Source: Candidatus Woesebacteria bacterium GW2011_GWA1_39_21 (lineage in GTDB: Bacteria; Patescibacteriota; Microgenomatia; UBA8517). From it: a stretch of 59,744 nt of DNA. Positions 38,146-41,604 of this stretch are shown here, in pieces; the stretch's first letter is position 1, and every line of letters starts with the position of its first letter. Location of the stretch: positions 1 through 59,744 of the forward strand of contig LBWP01000012.1 of the NCBI GenBank assembly GCA_000993685.1, in the 5' to 3' direction. The position numbers were made by a program, and so were the translations under genes. The notes beneath the pieces are model-generated. The model ran no database searches. It worked only from the letters and a program-made list of their open reading frames with translations, and had not been told where the DNA came from.

Positions 38146-38604
38146 TTATTCTATTTCCCCAATATACTCCCCCTCTTTTGAAAATCCTTCATTAAAATCT
38201 TCAAGTAGTTTAGCGGATAAAGTTTTTGGCAAGAGATTATCAGGTAAATTATCAATATCAAGCCATGTTAACCAAACATCTCCGTCAGGATGTTGGGGAT
38301 CTTTCATACCTTCAAGTTTCTCTGTTTTGTCAATATTTCCTAATATAAACAGCTCTATACTATGTTCATCCTCATCAAGTTTGATAAAATCACGAACGTA
38401 GAGAATTTTTTGAAAATCAAACTTCACATCTTCCCCACATTCCTCTCTGGTTTCCCTTATACACGCATCCTTTATTGTTTCCCCATACTCCAAGTGACCG
38501 CCAATATAATGATAGAAATCACTTTTTTTTCGATACTGAACTAAAACTTTCTTGTCATGAATTACTACAAGCCTTACTCGTACATTAATCCTCTTATTTA
38601 ATTT
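38146..38604 (-). CDS. NUDIX hydrolase, 5' end lacking a canonical start
   Basis: Nudix box GGHLEYGETIKDACIRETREECG. The frame is open 37 codons upstream of the annotated TTG (..RINVRVRLVVIHDKKVLV..). Confidence 0.75.
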   Translation of the reverse strand, partial: KLNKRINVRVRLVVIHDKKVLVQYRKKSDFYHYIGGHLEYGETIKDACIRETREECGEDVKFDFQKILYVRDFIKLDEDEHSIELFILGNIDKTEKLEGMKDPQHPDGDVWLTWLDIDNLPDNLLPKTLSAKLLEDFNEGFSKEGEYIGEIE

Positions 38605-38641
38605 TTATAACTTTAAAATAACTTCTTGCTGATAAATTCAT
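38600..38641 (-). repeat. Internal copy of a yifB/comM segment (att-like)
   Basis: 39/42 identical to 42020-42061 (27 bp exact); encodes MNLSARSYFKVIKI. Confidence 0.9.
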
Positions 38642-38692
38642 ACTGGAGGTTTCCGCAATCATTATTTTCTAACGCAAAACTATATAACAAAT

Positions 38693-38722
38693 TTGACAAT
38701 GTGTTGTCATTTTTTATATAAT
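38693..38722 (+). promoter_or_regulatory. Sigma-70 promoter of the T-box/argHG transcript
   Basis: TTGACA-18 nt-TATAAT. Confidence 0.8.
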
Positions 38723-38742
38723 ACCTAACATATTCGTGTAAA

Positions 38743-38958
38743 GGCGTTTGCACTGGAGTCGCGATCCAGGAGCTCCCGGTCAAAATACCGGGCGGAGTGG
38801 CCGTAATATCACTAGAGCATGTCACAAGGAAACTGAGTGCTTGAAAAATAAGGGTTATTTATCATTTGTGAATTGTAAATAACTGAAAAAGGGTGGTACA
38901 GCCTTAGAAGGGCCCCTTTGAATACCAACCAAATTTGGCATTCGAAGGGGCTTTTTTA
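38743..38958 (+). ncRNA. T-box riboswitch (ultrashort Stem I, probable Arg CGC specifier) with terminator
   Basis: CTGGA-GTCGCGA-TCCAG stem I, GGAGC, stem II CCCGGT..ACCGGG, GCCGTAA stem IIA/B, antiterminator AAGGG-TGGTACA-GCC..CCCTT, terminator GCCCCTTTGAAT..ATTCGAAGGGGC-T6. Confidence 0.85.
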
Positions 38959-38968
38959 GTTGTTATAT

Positions 38969-40321
38969 ATGAAAAAACTTTGGCAAAAAAATGCAGTTAG
39001 ATTAAATCCGGTTATTGAAGTCTTTGAAACAAAGGGCGATCTTATTTTGGATCAAAAACTGGTCAAGTACGATGTCTGGGGTTCAGTTGCTCAGGCAAAG
39101 ATGCTTAATAAAATAGGTATTATCACACCGAATGAATTATCCAGTGTGATCGCCGGGCTTCAGGATATATTAAAGTTAAATGAGCAAAACAAATTTATTC
39201 TGGAGGCGGGAGATGAAGATGTTCATACCAAGATTGAAAATTACTTGACGGAGAAATGCGGTGAGGTTGGTAAAAAAATTCACACAGGGAGGTCCAGAAA
39301 TGACCAGGTCTTAACGGTAATAAGATTATTTAGTAAGGAGCAATTAATTCTTATCTGGCAGGAATTAATCACTCTTGAAAATAGTTTTTTGAAATTTGCA
39401 AAAAAATTTCAGTCTGTGGCGATGCCCGGATATACCCATCTACAAAAAGCCATGCCTTCGACAGTGGGTTTATGGGCTTTGGCTTTTTTAGAGTCTCTTT
39501 TAGATGACTCTAAATCTATTAGTCATGCATATGAGTTAAATAATCAATCTCCTTTGGGTTCTGCAGCCGGTTTCGGTGTGCCGCTGGGATTAGATAGAGC
39601 GTATTCTGCTAAACTCCTGGGTTTTGCCAAAGTCCAGATTAATCCTGTTTATTGTCAAAACAGCAGAGGTAAAATAGAGGCAGAAATTGTAGCTTCACTT
39701 ATTCAGATACTGGCCACAATTAATAAGTTTGCCTCCGATGTGTTATTGTTTACAACAGCAGAATTTAACTACTTTACAATTTCCGAATCTTTATGTTCGG
39801 GAAGCAGTATCATGCCGCAGAAGAAAAATGTTGATGTAGCGGAGCTGTTAAAAAGTAAAGTGCACCTTGTTTTGGGTTATTATATCCAGCTTATAAGCTT
39901 ATCGAATAATTTGTTTTCTGGTTATAACCGGGACCTGCAAGATAGTAAAAAACCATTAATGGAGAGTTTTGAGATAGTTCTGGATAGCCTAAAAGTCGCT
40001 GATATTCTGATTAATAATCTGACTCCGAATAAAGAGAAATTATTAAGTAGTCTGACGCCAGAGATATTTGCCACGCATAGAGCATTTGAGTTAGTTAAAA
40101 AAGACATACCATTTAGAGAGGCATATCAAATGGTAGGAAGTAGTAATCAGGATATTCGTATTAAAGACATCGATAAATTACTTAAGTTATCGACCCATAT
40201 TGGCGGGACAGGAAACTTAGGTTTGAAATTATTTGAAAAGGAAGTTGGTTTAAGCAAAGTGGGTTTTGCTGAAGAGGAAAATCATTTCTATTTGTCAATA
40301 AAAAAATTACTTGAGAATTGA
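38969..40321 (+). CDS. argH: Argininosuccinate lyase
   Basis: KLW, EDVH, HTGRSRNDQV, MPGYTHLQ.A, GSSIMPQKKN, GYNRDLQ. Confidence 0.95.
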   Translation: MKKLWQKNAVRLNPVIEVFETKGDLILDQKLVKYDVWGSVAQAKMLNKIGIITPNELSSVIAGLQDILKLNEQNKFILEAGDEDVHTKIENYLTEKCGEVGKKIHTGRSRNDQVLTVIRLFSKEQLILIWQELITLENSFLKFAKKFQSVAMPGYTHLQKAMPSTVGLWALAFLESLLDDSKSISHAYELNNQSPLGSAAGFGVPLGLDRAYSAKLLGFAKVQINPVYCQNSRGKIEAEIVASLIQILATINKFASDVLLFTTAEFNYFTISESLCSGSSIMPQKKNVDVAELLKSKVHLVLGYYIQLISLSNNLFSGYNRDLQDSKKPLMESFEIVLDSLKVADILINNLTPNKEKLLSSLTPEIFATHRAFELVKKDIPFREAYQMVGSSNQDIRIKDIDKLLKLSTHIGGTGNLGLKLFEKEVGLSKVGFAEEENHFYLSIKKLLEN

Positions 40322-40332
40322 GGTGGTATTAA

Positions 40333-41604
40333 ATGAATATTAAATCTGATTATATAAAAACTGCTTCTTACGAAGGTAAAGTGGGTAAGGTTAAGAAAGT
40401 TCTCTTGCTTTATTCCGGAGGGTTGGACACTTCGGTAATCTTGAAATGGATTCAGGACCATTATAAGGCGGAAGTCGTAACTTTAACAGCCGATTTGGGA
40501 CAACAACACGATGGCTTGGAAGCAATTAAAAACAAAGCTCTAAAGTTTGGAGCCGTGGATGCAATTGTAGCCGGTTTCAAAGATGAGTTTGCGGATGATT
40601 ACATAGCCACGGGTATCAAAGCCAATGCTGAATACCAAGGAGAATATCATCTTTCAACACCAATAGGCAGAGCAATACTGGCAAAAAAGGCTGTTGAGAT
40701 AGCTAAGAAAGTTGGTGCCGATGCAATTGCTCATGGATGTACGGGGAAAGGTAACGATCAAGTGAGGATTGAGGGTTATGCCCTGACTTTTAATCCAGAT
40801 ATAAAAGTAATCGCTCCGGTAAGAGAATGGGCAATGGATAGAAATGAAGAAATTAAATATGCCCAGGAGTATGGAATTCCAATTCCTGCTTCAGTGGAAT
40901 TTCCGTATAGTGATGATGACAATATGTGGGGTATTACCTGGGAAGGCGGAGAAATAACCGACCCGGGTCTGATAGCTCCGGAGGAAAAATTTTTAACCAC
41001 TTATACATTGCCTAAGGATGCGCCTGATAAACCGGAATTCGTAAAATTAGGATTTGAACAAGGCATACCAACCTCGCTTAATGGAGAGAAATTAAGTTTG
41101 GCTAATTTAATTATTAAATTGAACAAACTTGCCGGTTGTCATGGCGTAGGAACGGTTCAACTTTTGGAAGACAGACTAATCGGTCTGAAAAATAGAGGAG
41201 TATATGAACATCCGGCAGCCCATGTAATTATCGAAGCTCACAGAAATTTAGAGAAGTATGTTTCAACAAGAACCTTAAATGAGTTAAAGGAAATAATGGA
41301 TATTAAATGGGGTTATATGTGTTATGGAGGCTTATGGTATGACCCGGCCATGACAGCAATCAATGCTTTTAATGACAAGGTTAATGAAAAAGCAACAGGG
41401 GAAGTAACCATAAAACTATTTAAGGGTAATACCACAGTGGTGGCAGTCACATCCCCCTTTGCTTTGGACTATGTTTCCTTCAATAAAAATGAAGGTTATG
41501 ATCTGAATGTTAATATCAGCGCCGGGTTCATCGAAGTACACTCTTTACAAATGAAGCTTGCCAAACAGATCGAGCGAAAGATGAAATTAGGAAAACAATC
41601 GTAA
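40333..41604 (+). CDS. argG: Argininosuccinate synthase
   Basis: LYSGGLDTS, HGCTGKGNDQVR, YS.D.N.WG, K.RGVYE.P. Confidence 0.95.
   Translation: MNIKSDYIKTASYEGKVGKVKKVLLLYSGGLDTSVILKWIQDHYKAEVVTLTADLGQQHDGLEAIKNKALKFGAVDAIVAGFKDEFADDYIATGIKANAEYQGEYHLSTPIGRAILAKKAVEIAKKVGADAIAHGCTGKGNDQVRIEGYALTFNPDIKVIAPVREWAMDRNEEIKYAQEYGIPIPASVEFPYSDDDNMWGITWEGGEITDPGLIAPEEKFLTTYTLPKDAPDKPEFVKLGFEQGIPTSLNGEKLSLANLIIKLNKLAGCHGVGTVQLLEDRLIGLKNRGVYEHPAAHVIIEAHRNLEKYVSTRTLNELKEIMDIKWGYMCYGGLWYDPAMTAINAFNDKVNEKATGEVTIKLFKGNTTVVAVTSPFALDYVSFNKNEGYDLNVNISAGFIEVHSLQMKLAKQIERKMKLGKQS

What the first reader, a model, noticed from the sequence alone, without database searches (positions are those of the whole stretch)
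38693..38958. Ultrashort-Stem-I T-box with an Arg specifier and a transcription terminator
Stem I is a 5-bp hairpin whose terminal loop GTCGCGA holds CGC, followed by GGAGC, stem II and a IIA/B pseudoknot. This is the architecture known from actinobacterial ileS translational T-boxes. Here it is coupled to a classical antiterminator/intrinsic terminator, has a variant bulge (UGGUACA), controls argHG and occurs in a CPR-like genome. I do not know of this hybrid class being described. GCG (Ala) is an alternative reading of the loop, but gene context favours Arg.
Basis: partly seen in the sequence, partly recalled or inferred. Interest (0 to 1): 0.8.

Follow-up and report, generated by a model that had tools for sequence, protein, structure and literature searches.

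The report
Miniature arginine T-box before argHG
The leader of the argH-argG operon of this tiny-genome (CPR, Microgenomates-like) bacterium is a real tRNA-sensing T-box switch that shows its arginine codon on the tip of a 5-bp hairpin yet ends in a transcription terminator, a combination that reviews of the field treat as atypical.

Summary
At 38693-38957 (+) there is a perfect sigma-70 promoter, a 5-bp Stem I with apical loop GU[CGC]GA, a hairpin Stem II, a IIA/B pseudoknot, Stem III, a T-box bulge UGGUACA and a -29.5 kcal/mol terminator with U6, 12 nt before argH-argG. Rfam T-box scores 34 bits (cut-off 93), because 76 Stem I positions are replaced by 7 nt.

The element belongs to a conserved family. 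I found 31 distinct CGC-loop leaders in related genomes, and all 31 have a terminator. Outside the 19 that I found by searching with ArgH itself, their operons hold argHG or argS in 5 of 12 cases.

A sister family differs by one base (GU[CAC]GA). It carries UGGG, which matches C73 of tRNA-His, and precedes hisS, tRNA-His or his genes. This fixes the codon frame, so the specifier is Arg (CGC), not Ala.

It is not a plain actinobacterial class III T-box. The loop has 7 nt, Stem II has no S-turn motif, the K-turn is non-canonical, and control is by termination.

T-box control of argG and argH is already known in Clostridioides difficile. Earlier notes of this scan report short-Stem-I terminator T-boxes in at least 23 other genomes, those listed being CPR-like. 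I found no paper describing them. There are no RNA or bench data.

The parts
38693..38722 (+). Sigma-70-type promoter: TTGACA, 18 nt, TATAAT. The inferred transcription start is near 38729.
   Evidence: 12 of 12 consensus match. By eye, most of the 11 related leaders printed show promoter-like hexamers just upstream; L077 and L074 show none, and L050 has about 70 nt of extra leader.
38743..38774 (+). Stem I domain. Basal helix GGC (38743-45) pairs with GCU (38772-74). An asymmetric internal loop has 5' GUUUGCA and 3' GA. The 5-bp stem is 38753-57 with 38765-69, and the 7-nt apical loop is 38758-64.
   Evidence: Covariation in all 8 pairs of the two helices across 38 relatives.
38760..38762 (+). 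Specifier codon CGC (Arg), followed by G38763 and A38764.
   Evidence: The genome encodes tRNA-Arg(GCG) with discriminator A73. The frame is fixed by the sister family with CAC and UGGG and by argS and argHG contexts.
38775..38792 (+). Stem II reduced to a 6-bp hairpin with conserved loop CAAAAU. There is no AGUA/GAA S-turn motif.
   Evidence: All 5 modelled pairs covary. AAAAU is invariant in the alignments A2-A4.
38793..38813 (+). Stem IIA (CGG/CCG) and IIB pseudoknot (AGUG 38796-99 with CACU 38810-13).
   Evidence: Relatives keep 3-6 Watson-Crick pairs here with 30 different sequences, such as AGUAC/GUACU, GUC/GAC and GUUC/GAAC.
38817..38840 (+). Extra hairpin with a conserved UGUC...GAG internal motif, between IIA/B and Stem III.
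   Evidence: Folded. Present in the Arg, His and long-Stem-I Tyr-type leaders of the clade.
38853..38884 (+). Stem III, flanked by purines.
38890..38917 (+). T-box sequence and antiterminator. Helix A1 is AGGG/CCCU, the bulge is UGGUACA (38894-38900), and helix A2 is GCCUU/AGGGC.
   Evidence: Energy -7.8 kcal/mol. UGGU matches A73 of tRNA-Arg.
38912..38957 (+). Intrinsic terminator: a 12+4-bp hairpin (38912-38951) plus U6 (38952-38957). Its 5' arm overlaps the 3' half of the antiterminator.
   Evidence: -29.5 kcal/mol. The same layout occurs in 31 of 31 CGC-loop relatives.
38969..40321 (+). argH (argininosuccinate lyase).
   Evidence: Pfam Lyase_1 at 5.4e-53, plus a weak ASL_C2 match (23.2 bits, below its 27.3 cut-off).
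40333..41604 (+). argG (argininosuccinate synthase).
   Evidence: Pfam Arginosuc_synth at 1.4e-61 and Arginosuc_syn_C at 1.5e-60.

Best explanation
This is a tRNA-Arg-responsive T-box riboswitch that controls argH-argG by transcription attenuation.

Proposed course of events:
1. Transcription starts near 38729.
2. The apical loop of the 5-bp Stem I presents CGC to the anticodon of tRNA-Arg(GCG).
3. The tRNA elbow has no docking platform. I infer that the anticodon stem is clamped by the hairpin Stem II, through its A-rich loop, and by the IIA/B pseudoknot.
4. If the bound tRNA is uncharged, its ACCA end pairs with UGGU of the bulge and stabilises the weak antiterminator, and RNA polymerase reads into argH.
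5. If the tRNA is charged or absent, the much stronger terminator forms and transcription stops at the U6 run.

Shown here: all the sequence elements, their conservation and covariation, the codon frame, the matching tRNA, and the mutually exclusive helices.

Inferred: tRNA binding, the role of Stem II, and termination itself.
For: - Identity as a T-box: end-to-end match to RF00230 at E 7e-6. It is the only hit in the genome.
- Helices: terminator -29.5 against antiterminator -7.8 kcal/mol, with shared bases 38912-38917.
- No long Stem I: the perfect promoter ends 21 nt before the basal helix at 38743, and there are no distal-platform motifs upstream.
- Matching tRNA: tRNA-Arg(GCG) with A73 is encoded in the genome.
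- Family: a model of the 5' domain hits 35 of 151 genomes of the class (this tally includes one unpublished genome, G141). 96.9% of cells are paired and 12 of 13 pairs show compensatory change.
- Terminators: 31 distinct CGC-loop leaders all carry UGG[U/C] and a terminator.
- Gene context, in the 12 leaders found without reference to genes: argH-argG in 2 (the window and L077), argS in 3 (L050, L118, L119), and a GNAT with an M20 hydrolase (ArgE/DapE-family in L121, PepT-like in L123) in 2. I saw no alanine gene among the ORFs I scanned with family models; many operon ORFs were not scanned.
- A different short hairpin, U[CGA]G, precedes argH-argG in L076.
- Sister family: GU[CAC]GA with UGGG in 17 of the 17 leaders that keep a T-box core. 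It lies upstream of hisS or a tRNA-His gene (15 of 26). tRNA-His has C73.
- Among ArgH-homolog loci, 20 of 80 have this 5' domain upstream and 37 of 80 have a T-box core motif.
Against: - The Rfam score is far below the gathering cut-off (34 against 93).
- The simple terminator scanner found nothing.
- There is no expression or biochemical evidence.
[quoted passage not shown] PMC10482949 (passages) says class III T-boxes require Stem II, and TBDB (PMC7778990, passages) describes the Stem II S-turn as monitoring the specifier-anticodon pairing.
- Here the 5' K-turn strand has CA where GA is expected, and Stem II has no S-turn motif, so the binding mode is unproven.
- The alternative frame reads GCG or GCA in different relatives. 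Both are Ala codons, and tRNA-Ala of this genome also has A73. The loop sequence and bulge alone therefore do not exclude Ala.
- I could not retrieve tRNA-Arg(GCG) from the two UGGC genomes I queried, G067 and G135.
Confidence: 0.82

Rival explanations
1. The specifier is GCG (Ala), one base further 3', and the switch senses tRNA-Ala(CGC).
For: GCG is followed by A, the commonest base after a specifier (recalled). tRNA-Ala(CGC) exists and has A73, which fits UGGU. In relatives with a [CGC]A loop the shifted frame reads GCA, which is also Ala.
Against: - Operons hold argS, argH and argG. I saw no alanine gene among the ORFs I scanned with family models; many operon ORFs were not scanned.
- In the sister family the shifted frame would read ACG (Thr), yet those leaders carry UGGG and precede hisS, tRNA-His or his genes.
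- The L076 loop reads U[CGA]G, whose shifted frame is GAG (read by eye; its argH-argG context is).
- 8 of 31 leaders have UGGC, which needs G73. G73 is seen in tRNA-Arg of G067 and G068, while both tRNA-Ala genes of this genome have A73.
Confidence: 0.03
2. The 3' hairpin acts mainly on translation or mRNA stability rather than as a terminator, as in the translational class III T-boxes.
For: Short-Stem-I T-boxes described so far mostly act on translation (PMC10482949, passages). The argH start codon lies only 12 nt after the U-run, and no Shine-Dalgarno sequence is visible.
Against: The GC-rich hairpin of -29.5 kcal/mol followed directly by U6 is a textbook intrinsic terminator. It contains no start codon and no SD within reach. 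In relatives the SD and start lie well outside the hairpin. All 31 relatives keep the U-run.
Confidence: 0.07
3. It is a decayed T-box that no longer binds tRNA. It would act as a constitutive or protein-controlled attenuator, since it lacks the platform, the S-turn and a canonical K-turn.
For: It scores below the Rfam cut-off. Three elements that reviews call important are missing (PMC7583486, PMC10482949, PMC7778990, passages). It is the only T-box in this genome.
Against: The specifier loop, AAAAU loop, pseudoknot and UGGN are strongly conserved, with compensatory changes, across many genera. The specifier and UGGN change together between the Arg and His families. Decay would not preserve this.
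Confidence: 0.05
4. A full-length Stem I exists, transcribed from a promoter further upstream.
For: About 200 nt of AT-rich intergenic DNA lies between the divergent NUDIX gene (38146-38493, minus strand) and the promoter.
Against: Rfam's global alignment finds no distal Stem I. No AG-bulge or distal-loop motifs occur in 38494-38740. A perfect promoter sits directly before the leader here, and promoter-like hexamers do so in most related leaders.
Confidence: 0.02

Closest known systems
Class III ('ultrashort Stem I') ileS T-boxes of Actinobacteria, such as Nocardia farcinica and Mycobacterium tuberculosis (PMC10482949 and PMC7583486, passages read; Sherwood 2015 not held)
   Same: The specifier sits in the apical loop of a short hairpin. 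There is no elbow-binding platform. Stem II and the IIA/B pseudoknot follow directly, and the discriminator domain has a UGGN bulge.
   Different: The loop has 7 nt rather than 5-6. Stem II is a bare hairpin with a CAAAAU loop and no S-turn motif. The 5' K-turn strand lacks GA. The output is an intrinsic terminator, not SD sequestration. The specificity is Arg, the target is a biosynthetic operon, and the host is a CPR bacterium.
Canonical class I transcriptional T-boxes (Rfam RF00230, for example B. subtilis tyrS), including those before argG, argH and argC of Clostridioides difficile (PMC11477304, table passage)
   Same: Same T-box sequence, antiterminator and terminator logic, Stem III, IIA/B pseudoknot and regulated pathway.
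   Different: 76 model positions of Stem I, including the platform that reviews call generally required for transcriptional T-boxes, are replaced by 7 nt. The score is 34 bits against a 93-bit cut-off.
Short-Stem-I terminator T-boxes noted earlier by this scan in other genomes, those listed being CPR-like, and seen here before ileS, valS, aspS, pheS, proS, thrS and hisS of relatives
   Same: Same design principle and same clade. The His family shares the whole 5' backbone and differs by one specifier base.
   Different: This one reads Arg and controls biosynthesis genes. Ile, Asn and Asp members keep an S-turn-type Stem II and a UGA K-turn strand, which the Arg and His backbone mostly lacks.

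Membership tests
T-box riboswitch (RF00230) | Conserved T-box sequence forming an antiterminator with a 7-nt bulge that starts with UGGN | tested here: met
   AGGGUGGUACAGCC at 38890-38903 aligns to the model. The last bulge base is A rather than C.
T-box riboswitch (RF00230) | Score at or above Rfam's gathering cut-off | tested here: not met
   34 bits against 93. The deficit comes from the deleted Stem I.
T-box riboswitch (RF00230) | Specifier codon that matches the amino acid of the regulated genes and a tRNA of the genome | tested here: met
   CGC before argH-argG. tRNA-Arg(GCG) is present. The frame is fixed by the His sister family.
T-box riboswitch (RF00230) | The N of UGGN is complementary to the tRNA discriminator base | tested here: met
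   UGGU against A73 of all four tRNA-Arg genes. This also fits tRNA-Ala.
T-box riboswitch (RF00230) | Mutually exclusive terminator that overlaps the antiterminator | tested here: met
   Shared bases 38912-38917. Energies are -29.5 against -7.8 kcal/mol, and a U6 run follows.
T-box riboswitch (RF00230) | Long Stem I with a distal platform for the tRNA elbow | tested here: not met
   76 model positions are replaced by 7 nt. No motifs upstream.
T-box riboswitch (RF00230) | Read-through dependent on uncharged tRNA | not testable with these tools
   No RNA run holds the locus.
Class III (ultrashort Stem I) T-box | Specifier in the apical loop of a short Stem I, with no platform | tested here: met
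   5-bp stem and 7-nt loop. The literature gives 5-6 nt (PMC10482949).
Class III (ultrashort Stem I) T-box | Stem II bearing an S-turn | tested here: not met
   Stem II is a 6-bp hairpin with loop CAAAAU. The AGUA/GAA positions of the model are aligned to AUA/CAA and the distal part is deleted.
Class III (ultrashort Stem I) T-box | Stem IIA/B pseudoknot | tested here: met
   AGUG/CACU here. Relatives show 30 different paired sequences.
Class III (ultrashort Stem I) T-box | K-turn at the base of Stem I | tested here: inconclusive
   The 3' strand GA-GC is present. The 5' strand ends in CA here, and in UA, AA or GA in relatives, where GA is expected.
Class III (ultrashort Stem I) T-box | Control of translation by SD sequestration | tested here: not met
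   A terminator hairpin plus U6, with no SD in or next to it.

The most novel reading that the evidence does not exclude
CPR (Microgenomates-type) bacteria hold a large, so far undescribed class of co-transcriptional T-boxes. These work without any tRNA-elbow contact. In the Arg/His backbone they also lack an S-turn Stem II and a canonical K-turn.

This would show that anticodon pairing plus a minimal clamp is enough to win the race against RNA polymerase. A nested hairpin-plus-U-run pause in Stem III, seen in 20 of 31 Arg leaders, may help.

One backbone was retargeted between Arg and His by a single specifier change plus the matching UGGN change.
Probability: 0.45. Interest if true: 0.75.

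Novelty: new variant of a known kind. Interest (0 to 1): 0.62.

Why it matters
Reviews argue that T-boxes acting on transcription need the long Stem I platform to capture tRNA fast enough, and that short-Stem-I forms mostly act on translation. A conserved and widespread family that joins an apical-loop specifier to an intrinsic terminator puts that kinetic argument to a direct test.

The family also gives the smallest natural decoding modules yet for engineering, about 75 nt from Stem I to the pseudoknot. A natural Arg/His pair shows how specificity is reprogrammed.

Standard annotation misses these leaders, because Rfam's cut-off is not reached. Riboswitch-poor pictures of CPR genomes are therefore partly an artefact.

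T-box linkage also marks several unknown genes in relatives as candidates for arginine-related functions.

Tried and rejected
- **Expression data.** No RNA holder was listed for 38400-39600, so I did not use read laying.
- **Default Rfam scan.** The scan of the window found nothing. The T-box appears only with the E-value threshold.
- **Simple terminator scanner.** It found 0 sites. I replaced it with RNAfold.
- **MAFFT alignments.** Alignments of whole leaders (A1) and of longer 5' domains (A2, A3) misplaced IIA, the pseudoknot and the insertions of L038 and L077. I therefore modelled only Stem I, Stem II and ACGG (A4, R1) and analysed the pseudoknot sequence by sequence. There the cross-paired control is weak (mean 3.58 against 2.81 pairs), because many relatives share GUUG/CAAC.
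- **Search for tRNA-Arg(GCG).** A BLAST search in five genomes returned other isoacceptors for G067, G135, G100 and G031. The UGGC-to-G73 link therefore rests on another isoacceptor in G067 and is open for G135, where Arg(CCU) has A73.
- **Script to sort leaders by Stem I length.** My script misfires on long leaders, so I give no exact count of short leaders. Its terminator test was positive for 72 of 85 hits.
- **Histidine-phosphatase leaders.** Leaders before histidine-phosphatase genes (L074, L081) could not be used to calibrate the codon frame.
- **Papers.** Papers not held: Sherwood 2015, Suddala & Zhang 2019a and 2019b, and Vitreschak 2008. The TBDB supplements, which may list Rfam hits with truncated Stem I, are closed. 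Searches for T-box with 'Candidate Phyla Radiation', 'Patescibacteria' or 'Microgenomates' gave 0 papers.

Full report
**What is there.** The intergenic region before the 38969 start codon holds a perfect sigma-70 promoter: TTGACA at 38693-98, an 18-nt spacer and TATAAT at 38717-22, a 12 of 12 match. A structured leader of about 230 nt follows.

With Rfam's gathering cut-offs the whole window gives no hit. With an E-value threshold the T-box model RF00230 matches 38738-38920 from its first to its last position, at 34 bits and E 7e-6 against a cut-off of 93 bits. The alignment shows 76 Stem I positions replaced by 7 nt. It is the only T-box match in the 1.04-Mb, 92%-complete genome.

Read from the sequence and the folds, the leader has these parts:
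- Basal helix 38743-45 with 38772-74.
- Stem I: CUGGA/UCCAG with loop GUCGCGA (38758-64).
- GGAGC.
- A 6-bp Stem II with loop CAAAAU.
- IIA (CGG/CCG) with the IIB pseudoknot AGUG/CACU.
- An extra hairpin (38817-40).
- Stem III.
- An antiterminator (38890-38917, -7.8 kcal/mol) with bulge UGGUACA.
- A terminator (38912-51, -29.5 kcal/mol) followed by U6 (38952-57).

The simple terminator scanner missed this hairpin.

The two downstream genes are argH and argG. The upstream gene is a divergent NUDIX gene. I found no ornithine carbamoyltransferase in the genome, so the organism may make arginine only from citrulline. That is an inference from a genome that is 92% complete.

**Is there room for a long Stem I?** No. 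The -10 box ends 21 nt before the basal helix at 38743. The 250 nt upstream carry none of the distal Stem I motifs. By eye, most of the 11 related leaders I printed have promoter-like hexamers just upstream of the leader; L077 and L074 show none, and L050 carries about 70 nt of extra leader.

**Relatives.** RF00230 finds matches in 49 of 101 genomes (100 related genomes plus the window's own, which gave no match under that call's stricter filters). Only 4 are above the cut-off. Many matches are 105-200 nt long.

Reading the matches and naming the downstream genes shows that apical-loop specifiers are common in this clade:
- AUC before ileS.
- GUC before valS.
- GAC or AAC before aspS-type genes.
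- UUC before pheS.
- CCC before proS.
- ACC before genes that cluster with a thrS.
- CAC before hisS.

A rough script found a hairpin plus U-run after the T-box core in 72 of these 85 hits.

Nine leaders, counting the window's own, carry the same loop motif as the window. I built a covariance model (R1) of Stem I, Stem II and the start of IIA from 7 leaders of this backbone, six with the Arg loop and the hisS leader L069. It hits 35 of 151 genomes sampled across the class. That tally includes one unpublished genome, G141, which I did not use further.

On 38 aligned leaders, 96.9% of pair cells are standard pairs and 12 of 13 pairs change on both sides. Sliding the partners gives at most 42.7%. 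The alignment was fitted to the model, which favours it. The IIB pseudoknot keeps 3-6 Watson-Crick pairs with 30 different sequences.

**Which codon?** The loop allows CGC (Arg) or GCG (Ala). Both tRNAs exist and both have A73. Loop variants in relatives do not decide the matter either. GU[CGC]GA, AGU[CGC]GC, CU[CGC]GA and [CGC]A all keep CGC, but the shifted frame reads GCG or GCA, which are both Ala codons. Four other lines of evidence decide for Arg.

1. Gene context. Among the 12 CGC-loop leaders found without reference to genes:
   - 2 precede argH-argG (the window and L077).
   - 3 precede operons with argS (L050, L118, L119).
   - 2 precede a GNAT with an M20 hydrolase (ArgE/DapE-family in L121, PepT-like in L123).
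   - 5 precede genes of unknown function.
   - I saw no alanine gene among the ORFs I scanned with family models; many operon ORFs were not scanned.
2. The sister family. It has the same backbone, and its loop differs by one base, GU[CAC]GA.
   - All 17 of 26 members that keep a T-box core have UGGG.
   - UGGG matches C73 of tRNA-His.
   - They precede hisS or a tRNA-His gene (15 of 26).
   - The shifted frame would read Thr.
3. A different 5-nt loop, U[CGA]G, precedes argH-argG in L076.
4. The bulge. 8 of 31 CGC-loop leaders have UGGC, which needs G73. tRNA-Arg of G067 and G068 has G73, while both tRNA-Ala genes of this genome have A73. I could not retrieve the GCG isoacceptor of G067 or G135, so this fourth line is weaker.

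**argH loci.** Searching one genome per species with ArgH gave 80 loci. The closest named ones are Levybacteria/Levyibacteriota, Daviesbacteria, Gottesmanbacteria and Roizmanbacteria of the Microgenomates group.

Of the 80 loci, 20 have an R1 match upstream on the same strand. 37 have a T-box core motif upstream, after I dropped 4 doubtful pattern hits. Together with the first set this makes 31 distinct CGC-loop leaders. All 31 have a hairpin plus U-run after the T-box.

**Mechanism.** The parts and their conservation fit classical T-box attenuation. tRNA-Arg pairs with CGC. Its uncharged ACCA end pairs with UGGU and stabilises the weak antiterminator. Otherwise the strong terminator forms. 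Nothing of this is measured here, and no RNA run holds the locus.

How the tRNA is held without a platform is inferred. In class III T-boxes Stem II is required and, with Stem I, forms a groove around the anticodon stem-loop (PMC10482949, passages). [quoted passage not shown] Here Stem II is a bare hairpin whose conserved A-rich loop may take over that role, and the 5' K-turn strand has CA where GA is expected. The element works like a class III decoder joined to a class I output, but it fails two membership features of class III.

**Novelty.** T-box control of argG, argH and argC is listed for Clostridioides difficile (PMC11477304, table passage), so the target is not new.

The architecture differs from what I could read:
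- Class III and IV 'mostly regulate translation initiation' (PMC10482949, introduction).
- TBDB searched its translational model only in Actinobacteria and in Rfam hits with a truncated Stem I (PMC7778990, methods).
- No paper in the library joins T-box with CPR, Patescibacteria or Microgenomates.

Earlier notes of this scan describe the same design before aaRS genes in at least 23 other genomes, those listed being CPR-like. These are unchecked AI notes, but my own survey agrees with them.

I rate the element a new variant of a known kind. It is real and conserved, and it is of clear interest to the T-box field, but it is one more member of a class this scan keeps finding.

Noticed in passing
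L086, L088, L091, L092, L094-L097, L104, L105, L107, L108, L113, L114 and other loci: The sister family with loop GU[CAC]GA is followed by a tRNA-His(GUG) gene on the same strand in 15 of 26 loci. In several loci his genes or hisS come next. A tRNA gene thus appears to be under a T-box that senses that same tRNA.
   Followed up: partly
Same His-type loci, for example L086 and L090: In His-type leaders the bulge sequence GGGACC pairs with a nearby GGUCC followed by U6-7. This forms a terminator-like hairpin inside the loop of helix A2. A second, conventional terminator lies further downstream. The layout differs from the textbook one.
   Followed up: no
L093, L095, L097, L098, L102, L104, L106, L108, L109: 9 of 26 His-type 5' domains are not followed by a recognisable T-box core. 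L108 has a variant core. At least one of the nine (L093) precedes a HisRS-like gene, read by eye, with only a hairpin plus U-run after the decoding domain.
   Followed up: no
20 of 31 Arg leaders, for example L038, L065 and L077. Also long Tyr-type leaders L003, L004 and L014. Absent from the window's Stem III (38853-38884).: A GC-rich hairpin of -8 to -12 kcal/mol followed by U5-7 is nested in the apical part of Stem III, upstream of the T-box sequence. It looks like a terminator or a programmed pause site, and might give tRNA time to bind.
   Followed up: partly
L003-L014: Long-Stem-I T-boxes of the same clade, with an apparent UAC (Tyr) specifier, share the CAAAAU-loop Stem II, the IIA/B element and the extra UGUC...GGAG hairpin with the short Arg and His leaders. 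The short forms look like truncations within one lineage-specific backbone.
   Followed up: no
L116, L117, L120, L122, L124, L118 and L119: Arg T-boxes in relatives also precede genes with no or only vague family matches. These include a 190-aa and a 137-aa ORF, a homologous pair of 623- and 660-aa ORFs (the 623-aa one, the one scanned, has a HAD-like part; each is followed by a conserved 289/290-aa ORF that looks like a nucleoside hydrolase by eye), a 502-aa ORF, and 272-aa and 265-aa ORFs before argS. They are candidates for arginine-linked functions.
   Followed up: partly
Own genome G000: No ornithine carbamoyltransferase (TIGR00658) was found in the 92%-complete genome, although argG and argH are present.
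   Followed up: partly
Window 1-59744: The 59.7-kb window holds no tRNA gene and no Rfam family at gathering score.
   Followed up: no
L136, L139, L140, L143, L144 and others: Many of the closest ArgH loci, which have the same CPR-type T-box leaders, sit in records titled 'uncultured Gammaproteobacteria' or 'Pseudomonadales'. Their neighbours in the ranking are named Microgenomates-group phyla, so these titles look unreliable.
   Followed up: no
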